Positions 29,616-36,466 of a stretch of 64,000 bases of DNA are shown piece by piece. The DNA comes from Paenibacillus beijingensis (GTDB lineage: Bacteria; Bacillota; Bacilli; Paenibacillales; Paenibacillaceae). Made by a program: the position numbers and the translations under genes. Where the stretch lies: positions 3,478,492 to 3,542,491 of the forward strand of contig NZ_CP011058.1 in NCBI RefSeq assembly GCF_000961095.1, read 5' to 3'. Every line of letters starts with the position of its first letter. Positions within the stretch are counted from its first letter, which is position 1. The notes beneath the pieces are model-generated. The model worked only from the letters and a program-made list of their open reading frames with translations, had not been told where the DNA came from and searched no databases.

Positions 29616-30794
29616 GTGATGAATTTTTTGCTGGATATGAAAACCGTTTTCGTATTGCTTATGATTGGACATCTGTTTACCGTCATTTTGATCAGCGCTT
29701 ACCGGCGTCAGCATGCGAAAGACAGCACCGTGAACACTTTTTTCGGGGCAAAATTAGCTCAAGCGCTGGCATGGCTGCTCGTCGCGCTGCGCGGCCAAAT
29801 ACCCGACTATCTCTCCGTCTCTGCAGGCAACACGCTTCTGTTTCTCGGGGAGGCGCTGGAAACGGCGGCGCTGCTGAAGCTGCAGGGAGCCTTCAATCAA
29901 AAGATCAAACGGATCTACATTATACTGTCCGCCGTCAATTTCGCGGCTTTTCATGCGGTGTTTCTGCTGTACAACGTCGAATACATACGAATTGCAGTCG
30001 CTTCGTTCGGCACGGCGGCTTACATTATTATACCTGTGTGGCTGATGATCCGGCGGCGGGATTCCTCATTGCTTAACGTTATGGTCGGGTATTTGTATCT
30101 GCTCGTTTTTATATCTCTCATTGGCAGAGGGATCTTAGCGCTTCGGCCGGGTTCCAGCATGGGGTTGTTCACGCCAGACCTGTTTCAGACATTGACGTTT
30201 GTGTCCATTTACCTCGTCATGATTTTGGGCAATACCGGTTTTGTGCTCTTGTCCAAGGAACAGGCAGATCGGGAACTGCTGCGGGTGGCCAGCTATGACG
30301 ATTTGACGGGCACGCTGAACCGCAGAACGTTCATTTTGCGTTCCAGGCAGTGCCTCGCCGATTATGCGCGAAAAAAAGCGCCGGTGTCGCTGCTGCTGTT
30401 TGACATCGATCATTTTAAAACGATTAACGATACATACGGTCACAGTGCCGGGGATATGGTGCTGGAGCTTTTGGCGAGCCGCATCCAGGAGCAGCTCGGC
30501 GCGGGCGATCTGTTCGGCCGGTACGGAGGCGATGAATTTGCGGTTCTGATGCCCGGCGCCGATGAAACGGCATCTGGCCGGACTGCCGAGCGGATCCGCG
30601 AGGTGGTAAGCTCCGTTACGCTGCCGGATATTCCATTAACGTTTACGATCAGCGGGGGGCTCGTCACCGTCGTCCCCGATCAGCGGACGCAGCTTGAGCT
30701 GCTGTATACGCTAACCGACAACGCGCTGTACAGCGTGAAAAAGAGCGGGCGAAACGGCGTGCAGCGCAGCCGGCTGCAGCTTGATTCCGGATGA
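29616..30794 (+). CDS. GGDEF-domain diguanylate cyclase with an N-terminal multi-TM sensor region
   Basis: Six to seven TM helices followed by a GGDEF domain (RYGGDEF). No inhibitory-site RxxD motif was checked. Confidence 0.8.
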   Translation: MMNFLLDMKTVFVLLMIGHLFTVILISAYRRQHAKDSTVNTFFGAKLAQALAWLLVALRGQIPDYLSVSAGNTLLFLGEALETAALLKLQGAFNQKIKRIYIILSAVNFAAFHAVFLLYNVEYIRIAVASFGTAAYIIIPVWLMIRRRDSSLLNVMVGYLYLLVFISLIGRGILALRPGSSMGLFTPDLFQTLTFVSIYLVMILGNTGFVLLSKEQADRELLRVASYDDLTGTLNRRTFILRSRQCLADYARKKAPVSLLLFDIDHFKTINDTYGHSAGDMVLELLASRIQEQLGAGDLFGRYGGDEFAVLMPGADETASGRTAERIREVVSSVTLPDIPLTFTISGGLVTVVPDQRTQLELLYTLTDNALYSVKKSGRNGVQRSRLQLDSG

Positions 30795-30800
30795 TGCCGC

Positions 30801-31187
30801 TTAATCATCAATGGCGGAAGGTCCCATCGTTGCCTGGCAGGCCAACCGGTAACCAGCCTTAACGTCGTCGGACAATAATTTGCGCTCGCGTTTATTGGCC
30901 TCAGTGAGCAAGCCGGCTCCGCTGATTAAGCGTATTTTGCATACGCCGCAGGAGCCTTTTCGGCATTTGTATTTGAGCGGAATACCGTTGTCCAAGCCTG
31001 ACTCTAATAGATTTTTCCCTGGAATAAAAGATACCTCATAAACATTTCCGTCCTGAATGAGGCGGATGCCCGATATTGCAGTTCTTGATACCGTCTTTGG
31101 AATCCCGGGGGGAGTCGACGTTTTATGTTGTTGATTGACAACAACCGAGCTTGGCACTAAAGAGCCGACCGTCAATTTTCGATTCAT
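30801..31187 (-). CDS. 2Fe-2S ferredoxin-domain protein with an N-terminal encapsulin targeting-peptide-like motif
   Basis: CRKGSCGVC...LACQA plant-type [2Fe-2S] ligand pattern. N-terminus MNRKLTVGSLVPS. RBS GGAGATG. Divergent from the cargo-encapsulin ORF. Confidence 0.7.
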   Translation of the reverse strand: MNRKLTVGSLVPSSVVVNQQHKTSTPPGIPKTVSRTAISGIRLIQDGNVYEVSFIPGKNLLESGLDNGIPLKYKCRKGSCGVCKIRLISGAGLLTEANKRERKLLSDDVKAGYRLACQATMGPSAIDD

Positions 31188-31219
31188 AATCGGCATCTCC
31201 TTTCCAAGTGACAACGAAG

Positions 31220-31228: not shown

Positions 31229-31280
31229 ATGAATGAAACAAGTAAATACTAGTTCAATAGCGAGAAAGGGGGAGAAACGA

Positions 31281-32720
31281 TTGCAGCGAATCGCACAGTT
31301 AAGAGATATGTTTACCGTCACCAAAGAGAATATCCAATATTTTATGAACTTGATCAGTCCGATTATTGCAAACGCTGTCGATGAGCATCAACGGATGTAC
31401 TTTCATCACATTTTCGAAGAAGAAGAACAGCATTTGGAGCGTCTGGAACTATTTCTCCCTAAGTTGGCCGAGCTGGCTATCGTTTCTCCGAACGAAGCTG
31501 CCGAGCGCAAATTGATAGGTTTGCTGCAGGATATCAACCTGGAAACGTTCGGGCAGCATAATTTTCTGGAGCACCTTGAACTGATGCTATTCCACTTTAC
31601 ATCCGGCGAGACCAACCAGAAGCTGCACGGAATGATTGACCAAACGAAACGTGATTACCTTATTATAAAAGATATTTTGTTTCAATTGAATGAAGAATTT
31701 CTTCCGGAAGCCAATCGTGCCAAAGCATCCGATCATCATGACGTGCACAGCGCGGCTCATCAAAGCCCCGTTTCAGCCGATTTCAATTGGAAGAACGAAG
31801 CGCCGGCAAGAAAAGGATTAACGGTTGGCAGCTTGAAAGGAATGAAAAAAGAGCAATTTTTCCGGAGGGTTACGATGGCAAACAAAGTCGATATTTATCC
31901 CGACTCCCCGCTAAATGCGGCGCAATGGGAGCAAATGAATGAAACCATTATTGAGGCCGCCCGCAAACAATTGATCGGCAGACGGTTTATCGAAATCTAT
32001 GGTCCGATCGGAGAAGGCATCCAGTCGATCAATGTCGACATCTTCGACGAACTTCAGGGCGGGGGAATCGACGTTCACGGCAGTAAACTTGAACTTTCCG
32101 TCCCAAGCCGGAGAAGGAACTTGACCATACCGATGCTGTACAAAGATTTTACGCTGTATCGAAGAGATTTTGAATTGGCGAAAAGTCTTTCCATCCCGCT
32201 TGACTTAAGTCCGGCTGCCAATGCGGCAACGCAGTGCGCAAGACTTGAGGATGAGCTGATCTTCCAAGGCTCGGAAGAATTCGATCTTCCCGGGTTAATG
32301 AATGTTAAAGGCCGTCTGACCCACATTATCGAGAATTGGATGGAATCGGGAAAAGCGTTTGAAGATGTCGTAGAGGCAACCCGTAAATTACAGCAGGTGG
32401 GACAAACCGGGCCGTACGCGCTTGTGTTGTCGCCCGAATTATACGCATCGTTGCATCGTGTCCATCAAGGAACCAATGTTCTGGAGATCGAGCATGTGAA
32501 GGAGCTCGTAACCGACGGCGTATTCCAGTCTCCGTCGCTTAAAGGCCGATCCGGAGTGATGGTCAATACAGGGCGCCACAATTTTGACTTGGTCATCGCC
32601 GAGGATTTCGACAGCGCCTTCCTTGATTCGGAACATTTGAATTTTCTGTTCCGGGTTTATGAGACGATCGTGCTCCGCATCAAGCGGCCAATTGCGATTT
32701 GTACGTTTGAAGAAGCTTAA
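31281..32720 (+). CDS. IMEF/ferritin-like cargo domain fused in frame to a family-1 encapsulin shell protein (full-length product)
   Basis: The reading frame is continuous from ATG 31233 (the likely start is TTG 31281, RBS AAGGGGGAG) to TAA 32720. The N-terminal roughly 200 aa are helical and E/H-rich (EEEEQHLERLE, FLEHLE). They end in the targeting peptide GLTVGSLKG (31815..31841). The C-terminal 281 aa are a linocin-M18/encapsulin fold. Confidence 0.7.
   Translation: MQRIAQLRDMFTVTKENIQYFMNLISPIIANAVDEHQRMYFHHIFEEEEQHLERLELFLPKLAELAIVSPNEAAERKLIGLLQDINLETFGQHNFLEHLELMLFHFTSGETNQKLHGMIDQTKRDYLIIKDILFQLNEEFLPEANRAKASDHHDVHSAAHQSPVSADFNWKNEAPARKGLTVGSLKGMKKEQFFRRVTMANKVDIYPDSPLNAAQWEQMNETIIEAARKQLIGRRFIEIYGPIGEGIQSINVDIFDELQGGGIDVHGSKLELSVPSRRRNLTIPMLYKDFTLYRRDFELAKSLSIPLDLSPAANAATQCARLEDELIFQGSEEFDLPGLMNVKGRLTHIIENWMESGKAFEDVVEATRKLQQVGQTGPYALVLSPELYASLHRVHQGTNVLEIEHVKELVTDGVFQSPSLKGRSGVMVNTGRHNFDLVIAEDFDSAFLDSEHLNFLFRVYETIVLRIKRPIAICTFEEA
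31875..32720 (+). CDS. family-1 encapsulin nanocompartment shell protein (internal initiation product)
   Basis: GGAGGG at 31864..31869 lies 5 nt before ATG 31875. The 281 aa align along their whole length with T. maritima encapsulin (AAQWEQMNE...LIGRRFIEIYGPIG, EDELIFQG, GPYALVLSPELY, and the C-terminal ICTFEEA). Confidence 0.8.
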   Translation: MANKVDIYPDSPLNAAQWEQMNETIIEAARKQLIGRRFIEIYGPIGEGIQSINVDIFDELQGGGIDVHGSKLELSVPSRRRNLTIPMLYKDFTLYRRDFELAKSLSIPLDLSPAANAATQCARLEDELIFQGSEEFDLPGLMNVKGRLTHIIENWMESGKAFEDVVEATRKLQQVGQTGPYALVLSPELYASLHRVHQGTNVLEIEHVKELVTDGVFQSPSLKGRSGVMVNTGRHNFDLVIAEDFDSAFLDSEHLNFLFRVYETIVLRIKRPIAICTFEEA

Positions 32721-32726
32721 GTTTTG

Positions 32727-32765
32727 CATGCTCTCCTTTGTGGAGGGCATGCTTTTTATTTTTCT
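32727..32765 (+). terminator. rho-independent terminator after the encapsulin gene
   Basis: GCATGCTCTCC...GGAGGGCATGC followed by TTTTTATTTTT. Confidence 0.7.
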
Positions 32766-32833
32766 TGAATAATAACAGGAAGAAAATCATAAGTTAAGCA
32801 CTGAGATGAGAATTTTGGGAATGAGAATCATTC

Positions 32834-32863
32834 TTGACAAATGCGACCGCCTTATACTATGAT
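32834..32863 (+). promoter_or_regulatory. sigma-A-type promoter (TTGACA-N18-TATGAT)
   Basis: Consensus -35 and a near-consensus -10 upstream of the 32994 gene. Confidence 0.6.
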
Positions 32864-32871
32864 GGTCTCAA

Positions 32872-32890
32872 GATAATGAGAATCATTATC
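32872..32890 (+). promoter_or_regulatory. Fur box (GATAATGAGAATCATTATC)
   Basis: 18 of 19 positions match the classical Fur box GATAATGATAATCATTATC. It sits at about +1 of the promoter. A second half-site-like palindrome, AATGAGAATCATT at 32820..32832, overlaps the -35. Confidence 0.7.
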
Positions 32891-32993
32891 GCGAAGAAAC
32901 GATCAAACTGCTGCTGTATTTCTGTTGTTCTTGCTCTTCTTTGCTTGTTTCGTACTGGGATATTTGAACTTCAACAGGAATTAACTGCATAAG

Positions 32994-33479
32994 ATGGAGG
33001 CTATTATGATTACGTCAATTAATGGTTTGCAGGATATTCATACCGTGATACGAAATGAGCGAAAAGTCGGGGGAGCAGTAGAGGCAGAGCGAATCCGCTT
33101 ATGTTCTGGCGAAGAATATGCTTATCCTGTCATAACAAGCGTGGATACCGATGGAAAAACAATCTATTCGATCGGTTTTTTTACCAATGACGGAACACGA
33201 ATTATCGCAAATATAAGTGAGGTCGCCCAGATCTCCCAGCCGTCGCATAAATGGCTAAAGGATTTGGTCAATACAAATTATAAGTCGTTCAAGATCGGTC
33301 AGAAAGTAAACTATTTGCTTCGGCTTTGTGAACTGAACGAGGGAAGCGCAACTTCGATTTTTCGAGCGGAAGTGGAAAGAATCGTGGAAGATATCGGTGC
33401 AGATTCGATTGCGCATGTGAAAAATGCGCATCCAATCCTGCAGCATTCCGCCAAAATACTGCCGATGCGCATCGCCTAA
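32994..33479 (+). CDS. hypothetical protein (predicted Fur-regulated)
   Basis: 161 aa with no recognisable domain. Lies downstream of the Fur-box promoter. RBS GATGGAGG. Confidence 0.5.
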   Translation: MEAIMITSINGLQDIHTVIRNERKVGGAVEAERIRLCSGEEYAYPVITSVDTDGKTIYSIGFFTNDGTRIIANISEVAQISQPSHKWLKDLVNTNYKSFKIGQKVNYLLRLCELNEGSATSIFRAEVERIVEDIGADSIAHVKNAHPILQHSAKILPMRIA

Positions 33480-34502: not shown

Positions 34503-35219
34503 ATGTATCGTATCTTGATCGTAGAGGATGATGAGAAGATCGGCGCGCTGCTTCAAAGCTATATTTGCAAATACGGCTTCGAGGCGATCATCGCCAAACG
34601 GCTGAACAAGTTGAACGCGGAGTTTGAAGAAACGGCTCCGCATTTGGTGCTGATGGACATCAACCTGCCTTTTTTCGACGGCTTTTATTGGTGCCGCCAG
34701 TTTCGCGTCCGCTCGAATGCGCCCGTTATCTTTATTTCCGCGCGGGCGGGGGAGATGGATCAGGTGATGGCGATCGAAAACGGAGGCGACGATTATTTGA
34801 CGAAGCCGATTCATCTGGACCTGATGATCGCCAAAATCAAAAGCGCGCTTCGCCGCGCTTACGGCGAATATGCGTCGGCTTCGGCGGCCGGCAAAGCGGC
34901 CGGGCCGTCCTGCGGCGGCCTCCGTCTCGACAACGGGCGCAGCCATCTCGAGTGGTCGGACCGCCTTGTAGAGCTGACCCGCAACGAGCGGCTGCTGGCG
35001 GAATGTCTGCTGGAAGCGGAAGGTCGGATTGTTTCCCGCGAACGGCTGCTGGAAGCGCTCTGGGACGATGTTCAGTTCGTCGACGACAATACGCTGACGG
35101 TGAACGTGACCCGGCTGCGCAAAAAAATGGAGGAGCTCGGGCTTTCGGAAGCGCTCGAAACGGTGCGCGGACAAGGGTACCGGCTGCGGACGGAAACGTT
35201 GGCGGACAGGACGGTATGA
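34503..35219 (+). CDS. OmpR-family response regulator (BceR-like)
   Basis: Receiver domain (LMDINLP) plus a winged helix. Confidence 0.85.
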   Translation: MYRILIVEDDEKIGALLQSYICKYGFEAIIAKRLNKLNAEFEETAPHLVLMDINLPFFDGFYWCRQFRVRSNAPVIFISARAGEMDQVMAIENGGDDYLTKPIHLDLMIAKIKSALRRAYGEYASASAAGKAAGPSCGGLRLDNGRSHLEWSDRLVELTRNERLLAECLLEAEGRIVSRERLLEALWDDVQFVDDNTLTVNVTRLRKKMEELGLSEALETVRGQGYRLRTETLADRTV

Positions 35220-35478
35220 GGAGCGGATGGACGTATGTGCTGGACAGGCTTTTTTACATCGTCTCTTTTCTGGCTGCAATCGGAGTCGGGTGTCTCATCT
35301 GGATATTGGACCGAACCGCTGCGCGGACAAGGGTACCGGCTGCGGACGGAAACGTTGGCGGACAGGACGGTATGAGGAGCGGATGGACGTATGTGCTGGA
35401 CAGGCTTTTTTACATCGTCTCTTTTCTGGCTGCAATCGGAGTCGGGTGTCTCATCTGGATATTGGACCGAACCGCTGC
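35167..35478. repeat. perfect tandem duplication of 2 x 156 bp spanning the RR 3' end and HK 5' end
   Basis: Two identical 156-bp copies. Each contains the RR tail, the RR stop (in copy 1), the HK RBS and the first 36 HK codons. Confidence 0.85.
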
Positions 35479-36466
35479 GGGCAGCGGCTATTACGGGTGG
35501 ACACTGCTTTATTTTGTGCTGCTGTCCGTTTTTGCGCTCGTGCTTTTTCTGGCGGCGGATTACGCCCGCCACAAACGTTATTTGCGCCAGCTGCAGGCGG
35601 CGCTTGCGCAGGCGGGCGATCCGCAAGCTCTGCAGCAGCTGAACGCGGGCGTCACGCGTGAGCAGCGCGCCGTGCAGGAGTTGCTTGCCGCCCGCCATCT
35701 GGCCTATCACAATGCGCTGGATGCATACAAGAAACGACAGGAGTTTCACCATCATTTTATCCATCAATGGGTTCACCAGATGAAGACGCCTGTTTCGGTC
35801 ATCGATCTGATCGCGCAGCAGGAGAGCGGCGGCGGGCTGTCCGGAGCGGAAGCGAAGGCGTTGCTGCTGAGCGTCGGCGAAGAGGCGGAACGGCTCGCAC
35901 GAGGGCTGGAGCAAATGCTGAACACGGCCCGCCTGGACAAATTCGAGCTCGATCTGCATCCGAAGCGGCTAGCGCTGCACGAGGCGGCGCGCAGCTGCAT
36001 CAATACGCATAAGCGGCTTCTTATTCGCGGGAGCATTTTTCCGCAGGTGGAGGGCGAGGCTTGGGCGGAAACGGACGAGAAATGGCTGGCTTTCATTCTG
36101 AACCAGCTGATCGCGAACGCCATCAAATATTCCCGTCCGAAACCGGGCAGCAAGCGGCTGACAGTAAAAGTCGGGCACGCTCTGAACGGCGTCGCGACGG
36201 TGACCGTGCAGGATGAGGGCATCGGCATCCCGTCCCAAGACTTGCCGCGCGTGTTCGATCCGTTCTTTACGGGCGAGAACGGCCGCTCCAGCGAGGAGTC
36301 CACCGGGATGGGATTGTATCTTGTTCAGCAGGTGTGCCTGAAGCTCGGCCACCGGATCCGGATCGAATCGGCGGAGGGACGGGGAACGGCGGTGACCGTT
36401 GAAATAAGCGGCGGCGGAATTCACGGGATGGCGCGGGAGATGCAAACTTTTGCGGAAGAACGGTGA
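35372..36466 (+). CDS. sensor histidine kinase, intramembrane-sensing BceS-like
   Basis: Two TM helices with a minimal loop, an H-box-like QWVHQMKTP region, and an HATPase. ATG 35372 is in copy 2 of the duplication. An alternative start at ATG 35216 in copy 1 would add a 52-aa in-frame N-terminal repeat. Confidence 0.75.
   Translation: MRSGWTYVLDRLFYIVSFLAAIGVGCLIWILDRTAAGSGYYGWTLLYFVLLSVFALVLFLAADYARHKRYLRQLQAALAQAGDPQALQQLNAGVTREQRAVQELLAARHLAYHNALDAYKKRQEFHHHFIHQWVHQMKTPVSVIDLIAQQESGGGLSGAEAKALLLSVGEEAERLARGLEQMLNTARLDKFELDLHPKRLALHEAARSCINTHKRLLIRGSIFPQVEGEAWAETDEKWLAFILNQLIANAIKYSRPKPGSKRLTVKVGHALNGVATVTVQDEGIGIPSQDLPRVFDPFFTGENGRSSEESTGMGLYLVQQVCLKLGHRIRIESAEGRGTAVTVEISGGGIHGMAREMQTFAEER

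What the first reader, a model, noticed from the sequence alone, without database searches (positions are those of the whole stretch)
31815..31880. Cargo and shell are one continuous reading frame with an internal SD plus ATG exactly at the shell boundary
Every characterised IMEF/Fdx-type Firmicute system encodes cargo and shell as separate genes. Here no stop codon separates the targeting peptide (GLTVGSLKG, 31815..31841) from the shell's first Met (ATG 31875). The only spacer is a 14-aa stretch, MKKEQFFRRVT. Yet a consensus GGAGGG lies 5 nt before that ATG. The locus could therefore make two products. One is a tethered cargo-shell fusion. The other is free shell from internal initiation. That would set cargo-to-shell stoichiometry translationally. 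The alternative is a recent stop-codon loss or assembly error that fused two genes. An A6 homopolymer (AAAAAA, 31845..31850) lies between the targeting peptide and the internal SD and is indel-prone. A homopolymer-length error in reads is therefore the most likely technical cause of an artefactual fusion.
Basis: seen in the sequence. Interest (0 to 1): 0.85.

Follow-up and report, generated by a model that had tools for sequence, protein, structure and literature searches.

The report
Stop-codon loss fuses encapsulin cargo to shell
In Paenibacillus beijingensis the stop codon of the iron-storage (IMEF) cargo gene reads GAG instead of TAG, so cargo and encapsulin shell form one reading frame that still holds the shell's own ribosome-binding site; this is a lineage-specific oddity of a well-known system, with no evidence that it was selected for.

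Summary
ORF 31233..32720 (likely start TTG 31281, 479 aa) runs without a stop through an IMEF ferritin-like cargo, its targeting peptide GLTVGSLKG, 11 further codons and a complete family 1 encapsulin shell. GGAGGG lies 5 nt before the shell ATG at 31875.

The closest relative found (L006; shell 94% aa identity) shows how this arose. Its cargo ends ...GSLRGMKK-TAG, followed by a 22-nt spacer with the same SD, then ATG. The window has GAG in place of TAG (31851..31853) and a 21-nt spacer. The fusion therefore rests on a stop-codon substitution plus an in-frame spacer.

The A6 run is identical in L006, and indels there would not restore a canonical cargo end, so the homopolymer-artefact idea is refuted. 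Five other related loci also keep separate genes.

The "internal" SD and ATG are simply the ancestral shell RBS. Both domains are under purifying selection.

The likely products are a 54.8-kDa tethered fusion and a 31.6-kDa free shell. That is inferred, not shown, and nothing indicates adaptation. One independent metagenomic IMEF-shell fusion exists (L005), made by a deletion. A sequencing error cannot be excluded from a single assembly. I rate it a new variant of a known kind, of modest interest.

The parts
30801..31196 (-). 2Fe-2S ferredoxin with an N-terminal targeting-peptide-like motif (MNRKLTVGSLV). The start is ATG 31187 or 31196; the ORF is open back to TTG 31241.
   Evidence: ORF. PF00111 Fer2 E 5.8e-13. 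TVGSL motif read from the translation. Divergent Fdx also present in L006. Fdx with N-terminal TVGSL is typical of IMEF operons (PMC8346489).
31201..31230 (+). Weak sigma-70-like promoter match upstream of the cargo (TTTCCA-18-TAAAAT, 9/12).
   Evidence: This is a consensus match only.
31268..31283 (+). Cargo RBS: GGGGGAG (31268..31274), 6-nt spacer, start codon TTG 31281.
   Evidence: Sequence. Position-homologous to ATG in L006 (GGGGGAGAACG-ATG). The upstream in-frame ATG 31233 has no SD, and its L006 counterpart is closed by a stop (ATG AAA TAA).
31281..31814 (+). IMEF ferritin-like cargo domain plus a flexible linker.
   Evidence: PF24309 E 1.5e-42 and TIGR04536 184 bits against a cut-off of 100. 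PDB 6N63 E 1.2e-29. 87% aa identity to P0121 of L006.
31815..31841 (+). Targeting peptide GLTVGSLKG, intact but now internal to the ORF.
   Evidence: Aligned with the TPs of relatives.
31842..31850 (+). MKK: the last three codons of the ancestral cargo. This stretch contains the A6 run 31845..31850.
   Evidence: L006 cargo ends ...GSLRGMKK-TAG with an identical GGAATGAAAAAA.
31851..31853 (+). GAG codon at the position of the ancestral stop (TAG in L006). This is the stop-codon loss.
   Evidence: Alignment. In silico G31851T restores a 190-aa cargo, the same length as P0121.
31854..31874 (+). Former intergenic spacer, 21 nt, now 7 codons (QFFRRVT). It contains the shell SD GGAGGG at 31864..31869. 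It is one T shorter than in L006 (TT at 31870..31871 against TTT), which puts the shell in frame.
   Evidence: No significant RNA structure over the RBS (z = +0.98).
31875..32720 (+). Family 1 encapsulin shell protein, 281 aa, with its own ATG. Annotated on its own in NCBI/UniProt (P0001; A0A0D5NS11, VN24_15910).
   Evidence: NF041155 286.6 bits against a cut-off of 100 and PF04454 E 1.1e-69. P0001 is 100% identical. PDB 6NJ8 E 9.1e-115. AF2 model with a confident shell fold.
32726..32762 (+). Intrinsic terminator-like hairpin plus T-run that ends the operon.
   Evidence: 11-bp stem, 7 GC pairs, TTTTTATTTT.

Best explanation
This is a canonical Firmicute IMEF encapsulin operon (divergent Fdx, IMEF cargo, shell) in Paenibacillus beijingensis. 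The cargo stop codon has been lost by a T-to-G substitution (TAG to GAG, 31851..31853). The remaining 21-nt spacer is stop-free and in frame, so ribosomes that start at the cargo TTG (31281) read straight into the shell gene.

Shown: the continuous frame, the identity of both halves, and the ancestral state in relatives. Also shown are conservation of the shell RBS and ATG, purifying selection on both halves, and the rarity of such fusions.

Inferred: the locus makes two proteins. One is a 479-aa (54.8 kDa) IMEF-TP-linker-shell fusion. The other is the 281-aa (31.6 kDa) free shell, from de novo initiation at the retained GGAGGG-N5-ATG. No free cargo would be made.

The TP-binding site, formed by the shell's N-terminal helix and P-domain, lies on the shell interior (PMC6668986). 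N-terminal cargo fusions are internalised on assembly (PMC8346489). Fusion protomers should therefore co-assemble with free shell and carry IMEF inside on its roughly 40-50-residue flexible tether, much as TP-bound cargo would sit.

The cargo:shell ratio would then be set by the two initiation rates. I read this as a by-product of a tolerated, probably near-neutral mutation rather than an evolved device.
For: Continuous ORF and motif coordinates.

Domain identities.

Organism: (P0001 100% identical, P. beijingensis, 5.75-Mb contig).

Ancestral state: L006 has ...GSLRGMKK-TAG, a 22-nt spacer with the same SD, then ATG. Shell identity is 265/281 aa and the operon is about 85% identical at nucleotide level. 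L002, L003, L004, L015 and L016 also have a stop 1-6 codons after GSLK and separate genes.

The A6 run is unchanged in L006, and indels there do not give a canonical stop.

Selection: dN/dS between window and L006 is 0.11 for IMEF and 0.04 for shell. With L002, L003 and L004 as outgroups, 3 IMEF changes are assigned to the window branch, 8 to the L006 branch, and 14 are ambiguous.

Neighbouring genes show no frameshift-type breakage: the overlapping ORF pairs are distinct complete genes.

The RBS region is unstructured.

AF2 folds the shell confidently and leaves the TP plus linker disordered, as expected for a tether.

The published catalogue lists this shell as 'Putative IMEF' with no cargo accession, as expected if the cargo has no stop of its own and was never called as a gene.

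N-terminal cargo fusions are tolerated in other family 1 encapsulins (PMC8346489). An independent IMEF-shell fusion exists in L005.
Against: Only one assembly of this species is available, and no reads, so a base-call error at 31851 or in the TT run cannot be excluded.

No protein or ribosome data exist for either product.

Both fusions found (the window and L005) are singletons whose nearest relatives have separate genes. The architecture is therefore not conserved anywhere, which fits neutrality or mild harm as well as function.

Ribosomes elongating through the internal RBS could lower free-shell initiation, and termination-reinitiation coupling is lost, so shell supply might suffer.

The timing of the stop loss on a branch with dS of about 0.7-0.8 between the two lineages is unknown. 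The low dN therefore does not prove that the fusion state itself has been under selection.
Confidence: 0.68

Rival explanations
1. Sequencing or assembly error. The real genome has TAG at 31851 (two ordinary genes), or TTT at 31870..31872 (a cargo with a 30-aa out-of-frame extension), and the fusion exists only in the deposited sequence.
For: There is a single assembly and no independent copy. P0001 has 1 member on 1 contig. The exact 281-aa protein is not on record in the contig index. The metagenome scan for the junction found only chance matches. From memory and not verified here, the genome is a 2015 long-read assembly, a type that can keep residual errors.
Against: The fusion needs a substitution at the stop codon, whereas residual long-read consensus errors are mostly homopolymer indels. 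The window shows no broken neighbouring genes. About 15% of operon positions differ between the window and L006 anyway, so a true substitution is unremarkable.
Confidence: 0.12
2. Evolved dual-product design. The fusion plus internal start would be selected to fix cargo-to-shell stoichiometry translationally and to tether IMEF covalently.
For: The in-frame SD+ATG is intact and unstructured. Both halves are under purifying selection. The cargo start is TTG here against ATG in L006, which could lower the share of fusion product. A second, independent IMEF-shell fusion exists in L005, where the TP is deleted, so tethering is the only loading route there. Archaeal Flp-fusions show that the architecture can be stable (PMC8346489).
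Against: The internal RBS is inherited unchanged from the two-gene ancestor, so it is not evidence of design. The TP is fully retained although redundant for a tethered cargo. The architecture is not conserved in any relative: six related loci are unfused, and no IMEF fusion appears among the top 150 representatives. One point mutation plus a one-in-three frame coincidence is enough to explain it.
Confidence: 0.1
3. Loss of function. The stop loss cripples the cargo because the fusion misfolds, is degraded or poisons T=4 assembly. The locus would then yield only empty shell from the internal start, or be on the way to decay.
For: The cargo start codon is the weaker TTG. The fusion is a singleton. 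IMEF works as a dimer with about 42 densities per 240-mer shell (PMC6668986), so covalent 1:1 tethering on fused protomers departs from the native geometry.
Against: There are no further lesions. IMEF on the window branch shows fewer assignable changes than on the L006 branch (3 against 8), and dN/dS is 0.11. The metal-site region DEHQRMYFHHIFEEEEQHLERL is identical to relatives. The long disordered linker (37-aa linker in PMC6668986) should allow dimerisation of tethered IMEF. N-terminal fusions are tolerated in other encapsulins.
Confidence: 0.1

Closest known systems
IMEF encapsulin system of Quasibacillus thermotolerans (PDB 6NJ8 shell, 6N63 cargo; Giessen et al. 2019, PMC6668986)
   Same: Same shell family (E 9.1e-115 to 6NJ8) and the same cargo family (E 1.2e-29 to 6N63). 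It has the TVGSL targeting peptide preceded by a long flexible linker. It has an associated 2Fe-2S ferredoxin with an N-terminal TVGSL motif. Gene order is cargo then shell, with a short spacer that carries the shell SD.
   Different: There the cargo and shell are two genes, and the TP sits at the cargo C-terminus. Here the cargo has no stop of its own, the TP is internal, and no free cargo can be made by ordinary translation.
Archaeal Flp-fusion encapsulins (Pyrococcus furiosus PfV, PDB 2E0Z; Saccharolobus) as described in PMC8346489 and PMC11202242
   Same: A ferritin-like domain is fused N-terminally to a family 1 shell protein in one ORF, and is internalised on assembly.
   Different: The fused domain there is EncFtn/Flp-type (decamer-forming), not IMEF. 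The linker is short (about 8 aa) with no TP. Those fusions are conserved across archaeal clades and reported only in Archaea. Here the domain is IMEF, the TP and a roughly 50-aa tether are retained, a functional-looking internal RBS remains, and the closest relatives are unfused.
Metagenomic IMEF-shell fusion P0063 / L005 (Logan SRR28285722)
   Same: IMEF (PF24309) and shell (PF04454) lie in one 433-aa ORF, with an SD (AGGAGG) and a TTG shell start retained inside the frame.
   Different: It was made by a deletion that removed most of the linker and the TP (only 'LT' remains) and shifted the frame past the TAG, which lies inside the SD in its relative L015. It shares only 44% identity with the window protein. 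It is an independent event and also a singleton.
In-frame internal initiation giving long and short isoforms of compartment proteins (carboxysome CcmM 58/35 kDa, Pdu PduB/PduB', phage lambda C/Nu3). From general knowledge, not checked here.
   Same: One reading frame holds an internal SD plus start codon, so a full-length protein and a C-terminal protein could both be made and co-assemble.
   Different: In those systems both products are demonstrated and the arrangement is conserved. Here both products are only inferred, and the arrangement is a lineage-specific remnant of two genes.

Membership tests
IMEF-type family 1 encapsulin system | Shell protein of the family 1 encapsulin (HK97-fold, Linocin_M18) family | tested here: met
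   NF041155 286.6 bits (cut-off 100) and PF04454 E 1.1e-69. 6NJ8 E 9.1e-115. AF2 model with mean pLDDT 81.5 and a confident shell region.
IMEF-type family 1 encapsulin system | IMEF ferritin-like cargo protein | tested here: met
   TIGR04536 184.3 bits (cut-off 100), covering profile positions 1-193 of 194. PF24309 E 1.5e-42. 6N63 E 1.2e-29.
IMEF-type family 1 encapsulin system | TVGSL-type targeting peptide at the cargo C-terminus | tested here: inconclusive
   The motif GLTVGSLKG is intact. It is not C-terminal in the ORF as sequenced, because 11 codons and the whole shell follow it.
IMEF-type family 1 encapsulin system | Cargo and shell encoded as separate adjacent genes | tested here: not met
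   There is no stop between 31281 and 32718. Relatives L002, L003, L004, L006, L015 and L016 do meet this feature.
IMEF-type family 1 encapsulin system | Associated 2Fe-2S ferredoxin with an N-terminal TVGSL motif (present in about 70% of operons) | tested here: met
   ORF 30801..31196 (-), PF00111 E 5.8e-13, N-terminus MNRKLTVGSLV. The frequency figure is from PMC6668986.
IMEF-type family 1 encapsulin system | T=4 shell assembly and iron mineralisation | not testable with these tools
   This needs purification with EM, or expression experiments.
Cargo-fusion family 1 encapsulins (Flp-fusion type) | Cargo domain N-terminally fused to the shell protein in one ORF | tested here: met
   This holds at the level of the reading frame only; no protein evidence exists.
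Cargo-fusion family 1 encapsulins (Flp-fusion type) | Fused domain is EncFtn/Flp (rubrerythrin-like) type | tested here: not met
   The domain is IMEF (PF24309). Archaeal-type fusions P0284 and P0316 hit PF02915 and PF22277 instead.
Cargo-fusion family 1 encapsulins (Flp-fusion type) | Fusion conserved among relatives, so the architecture is under selection | tested here: not met
   The nearest relative L006 and five other related loci are unfused. The only other IMEF fusion, P0063, is unrelated in origin.
Dual-product genes with in-frame internal initiation | In-frame internal SD plus start codon | tested here: met
   GGAGGG 31864..31869, 5 nt, ATG 31875, in an unstructured context.
Dual-product genes with in-frame internal initiation | Both long and short proteins are made | not testable with these tools
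   This needs Western blot, MS, N-terminomics or initiation-site ribosome profiling.

The most novel reading that the evidence does not exclude
P. beijingensis really builds IMEF encapsulins in which the ferroxidase cargo is covalently tethered to a subset of shell protomers. The fused and free shell would come from two in-frame start sites on one mRNA, so the loading ratio is set by translation initiation. Together with the independent L005 fusion, where the targeting peptide has already been deleted, it would capture successive steps of the evolutionary route from peptide-targeted cargo to the fused-cargo architecture, so far reported for ferritin-like cargo only in Archaea.
Probability: 0.3. 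Interest if true: 0.55.

Novelty: new variant of a known kind. Interest (0 to 1): 0.35.

Why it matters
If the sequence is correct, a culturable type strain (DSM 24997) carries a natural covalent cargo-shell fusion in the IMEF class. Published surveys report ferritin-like cargo fusions only in Archaea. They list this very locus as 'Putative IMEF' with no cargo, so the cargo has been invisible to protein-based catalogues.

The strain would be a ready-made natural experiment on three questions. Does a tethered IMEF still load and mineralise iron? Is the targeting peptide dispensable once the cargo is tethered? How easily can two-gene encapsulin operons turn into fusion genes?

There is also a practical lesson. 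Gene-call-based encapsulin surveys miss cargos that lack their own stop codon.

The significance is limited because this is a single lineage-specific point mutation with no evidence of selection.

Tried and rejected
1. My first explanation is rejected. One search showed that deleting one base in GGAA (31839..31842) would give ...SLKG-TGA. The closest ortholog L006 instead shows that the ancestral cargo ran on to ...GMKK-TAG.

2. The A6 homopolymer-error idea is rejected.

3. The genome-contig scan with the 495-aa ORF returned only a distant MAG (L001, 42% identity) and gave no junction information.

4. The metagenome scan for the junction pattern TTGARAGGAATGAAAAAANAGC gave 8 hits. None has a TVGS-coding sequence upstream or a shell gene downstream, so all are chance matches.

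5. The representative-library search with the 479-aa protein found no IMEF-shell fusion in the top 150. The longer hits are anammox cytochrome-c fusions, shells with His-rich N-terminal extensions, archaeal Flp-fusions, or unrelated fusions. This list is not exhaustive, since the known fusion P0063 was not in it.

6. A combined alignment of fusion, shells and IMEFs (A2) misplaced all IMEF C-terminal tails into the shell region, so I did not use it for structure prediction.

7. AF2 of TP + linker + shell (A3) left the first 28 residues disordered. It gives no evidence for or against docking of the TP in cis.

8. Looking up the annotated genome context of P0001 failed because the protein is not on record in the contig index.

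9. The Rfam scan of the whole window found no family at gathering score. The repeat search around the operon found nothing meaningful. The RNA fold of the junction showed no significant structure.

10. P0331 (302 aa), which looked like a partial fusion, is a mis-called start that overlaps a normal cargo gene.
Full report
**1. What is there**

The window is from Paenibacillus beijingensis. The 281-aa protein encoded from ATG 31875 is 100% identical to the NCBI/UniProt 'family 1 encapsulin nanocompartment shell protein [Paenibacillus beijingensis]', found on a 5.75-Mb contig.

- GLTVGSLKG at 31815..31841
- ATG at 31842
- A6 at 31845..31850
- GGAGGG at 31864..31869
- TTACG as the 5-nt spacer
- ATG at 31875
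- no stop from 31233 to TAA at 32718..32720

Pfam and NCBIfam put an IMEF cargo on residues 18-202 (PF24309; TIGR04536 at 184 bits against a cut-off of 100, covering the whole profile). They put a family 1 shell on residues 224-492 of the same 495-aa ORF (PF04454; NF041155 at 287 bits against a cut-off of 100). Against solved structures, the two halves match the Quasibacillus thermotolerans shell 6NJ8 (E 9e-115) and its IMEF cargo 6N63 (E 1e-29).

The real cargo start is most likely TTG 31281. It lies behind GGGGGAG and is position-homologous to the ATG of the closest relative. That gives a 479-aa fusion frame of 54.8 kDa, and a 31.6-kDa shell if translation starts at ATG 31875.

The surroundings are standard for this kind of system:
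- A divergent 2Fe-2S ferredoxin carries an N-terminal MNRKLTVGSLV motif.
- A terminator-like hairpin follows the shell gene.

One small correction: the stretch MKKEQFFRRVT is 11 aa, not 14.

**2. How it arose**

The closest relatives all have two genes.

L006 is a 28.9-kb Logan contig. Its shell is 265/281 aa identical, its IMEF 87% identical, and the operon about 85% identical at nucleotide level. At the junction it reads:
- L006: ...GGAATGAAAAAA-TAG-CGATTGATCCGGAGGGTTTACG-ATG
- Window...GGAATGAAAAAA-GAG-CAATTTTTCCGGAGGGTTACG-ATG

The ancestral cargo therefore ended ...GSL(K/R)GMKK*. The window has GAG where L006 has TAG. Its spacer is 21 nt rather than 22 (TT against TTT), which places the shell ATG in frame.

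In silico, G31851T restores a 190-aa cargo, exactly the length of the L006 cargo. More distant relatives L002, L003 and L004 (shell 81-86% identical) end ...LTVGSLKA(R)* and then have 22-29-nt spacers. L015 and L016 are likewise unfused.

The 'internal' SD and ATG are simply the ancestral shell RBS, conserved base for base.

**3. The artefact question**

Any single indel between 31843 and 31874 yields a 210- or 220-aa cargo that overlaps the shell gene, not a canonical end.

The difference that matters is a substitution. From general knowledge, that is not the usual residual error of long-read assemblies.

Neighbouring genes in the window look intact. The two same-strand overlapping ORF pairs are distinct complete genes: CtaA with UbiD, and an ABC ATPase with an FtsX permease.

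No second copy of the locus could be found:
- There is only one assembly.
- The contig index has no record of the 281-aa protein.
- A metagenome scan for the junction gave only chance hits.

I put the error explanation at about 0.12.

**4. Is the locus decaying or selected?**

dN/dS between the window and L006 is 0.11 for IMEF and 0.04 for the shell. With L002, L003 and L004 as outgroups, 3 IMEF changes are assigned to the window branch and 8 to the L006 branch, with 14 ambiguous. The cargo is not visibly degenerating. The date of the stop loss on this long branch (dS about 0.7-0.8) is unknown, so this does not prove selection on the fused state.

Fusions are rare. In the searches run here only one other protein combined IMEF and shell: P0063 (L005), a 433-aa metagenomic ORF. 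Its nearest relative L015 (72% shell identity) is unfused, with a cargo that ends ...SLTIGSLKTNRSS-TAG, the TAG lying inside the SD. L005 arose by a deletion that removed the linker and most of the TP and shifted the frame past that TAG.

There are therefore two independent singletons made by different mutations. The architecture is easy to reach and at least transiently tolerated, but it is not conserved anywhere.

The top 150 hits of the 1.84-billion-representative search contain anammox cytochrome-c fusions, shells with His-rich N-terminal extensions and archaeal Flp-fusions, but no IMEF fusion.

**5. Most likely mechanism (inferred)**

There is one transcript. No promoter-like site was found inside the cargo on the + strand.

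- Ribosomes that start at TTG 31281 cannot terminate, so they make IMEF-TP-linker-shell.
- Ribosomes that start de novo at the retained, unstructured GGAGGG-N5-ATG make free shell.
- No free cargo is made.

In family 1 encapsulins the TP-binding site is built from the N-terminal helix and P-domain on the shell interior (PMC6668986). N-terminal cargo fusions are internalised on assembly (PMC8346489). Fused protomers should therefore co-assemble with free shell and hold IMEF inside.

AF2 of TP + linker + shell folds the shell confidently and leaves the first 28 residues disordered. That fits a flexible tether, but says nothing about whether the TP docks in cis. The native IMEF linker is already about 37 aa and spans 4.5 nm, so tethered IMEF could still dimerise.

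The cargo:shell ratio would equal the ratio of the two initiation rates. The cargo start is TTG here and ATG in L006.

I see it as a consequence of a tolerated stop loss, not as a design.

**6. Comparison with what is known**

The system is an IMEF encapsulin system in every component tested, but it fails the 'separate genes, C-terminal TP' feature.

It works like the archaeal Flp-fusion encapsulins but is not one of them, for four reasons:
- The fused domain is IMEF, not EncFtn/Flp.
- The TP and a long tether are retained.
- The arrangement is not conserved among relatives.
- The host is a Firmicute.

The 2021 survey states that all Flp-fusion systems are archaeal and names only cytochrome-c fusions as a further type. 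Its supplementary table lists this very shell (A0A0D5NS11, VN24_15910) as 'Putative IMEF' with an empty cargo field. That is as expected if the cargo has no stop of its own and was never called as a gene.

**7. Verdict**

- It is a new variant of a known kind.
- Interest is modest (0.35) because it rests on one genome and one point mutation.
- It is cheaply testable in an available type strain.

Noticed in passing
window 32817..33479: A 161-aa ORF (32994..33479, no Pfam hit) sits directly downstream of the shell gene. It is conserved in that position in L006 (86% aa), L004 (64%) and L002 (73%, partial), and on the other strand in L016 (42%). It is preceded by a strong promoter-like site (TTGACA-18-TATGAT, 32834..32863) and two Fur-box-like sites. 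The site at 32872..32890, GATAATGAGAATCATTATC, matches the consensus at 18/19 and is the only such site in the 64-kb window. The second is at 32817..32835 (14/19). Near-consensus boxes also precede the homologous ORF in L006, L002 and L004. It may be a Fur-repressed accessory gene of IMEF systems, perhaps for iron release.
   Followed up: partly
window 35156..35479: A 156-bp tandem duplication (2.1 copies, 98% identical) spans the 3' end of an OmpR-type response regulator (34503..35219) and the start of the adjacent histidine kinase. It duplicates the kinase's first hydrophobic segment in frame. It could be real or an assembly artefact.
   Followed up: partly
L005 1127..2428: This is an independent metagenomic IMEF-shell fusion (P0063, 433 aa). 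The linker and targeting peptide are deleted (only 'LT' remains), and the old TAG stop inside the SD is read in another frame. An AGGAGG plus TTG shell start is retained in frame. Its nearest relative L015 has two genes.
   Followed up: yes
window 31281..31283 and L006 5001..5003: The cargo start codon is TTG in P. beijingensis but ATG in the closest relative, with a slightly different SD spacing (6 nt against 4). This might lower the yield of the fusion product.
   Followed up: no
window 30801..31196 (-): The divergent 2Fe-2S ferredoxin carries its TVGSL targeting motif at the N-terminus (MNRKLTVGSLV). Its shell binding sites would be shared with the still-intact TP of the fused cargo.
   Followed up: partly
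window 31281..31874; PMC8346489 supplementary file 3: The cargo half is absent from the protein databases searched; the best IMEF hit is 87% identical and comes from another organism. The published encapsulin catalogue lists this locus as 'Putative IMEF' with no cargo accession. Cargos without their own stop codon are invisible to surveys based on gene calls.
   Followed up: yes
L016 2501..3409: The 302-aa 'shell' P0331 is a mis-called start that overlaps a normal cargo gene (cargo ends ...FTVGSLKHNEGGI-TAA; the shell starts at a TTG just after). It is not a partial fusion.
   Followed up: yes
window 29616..30794 (+): A membrane-anchored GGDEF diguanylate cyclase lies immediately upstream of the ferredoxin gene, in convergent orientation to it. 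There is no evident link to the encapsulin operon.
   Followed up: no
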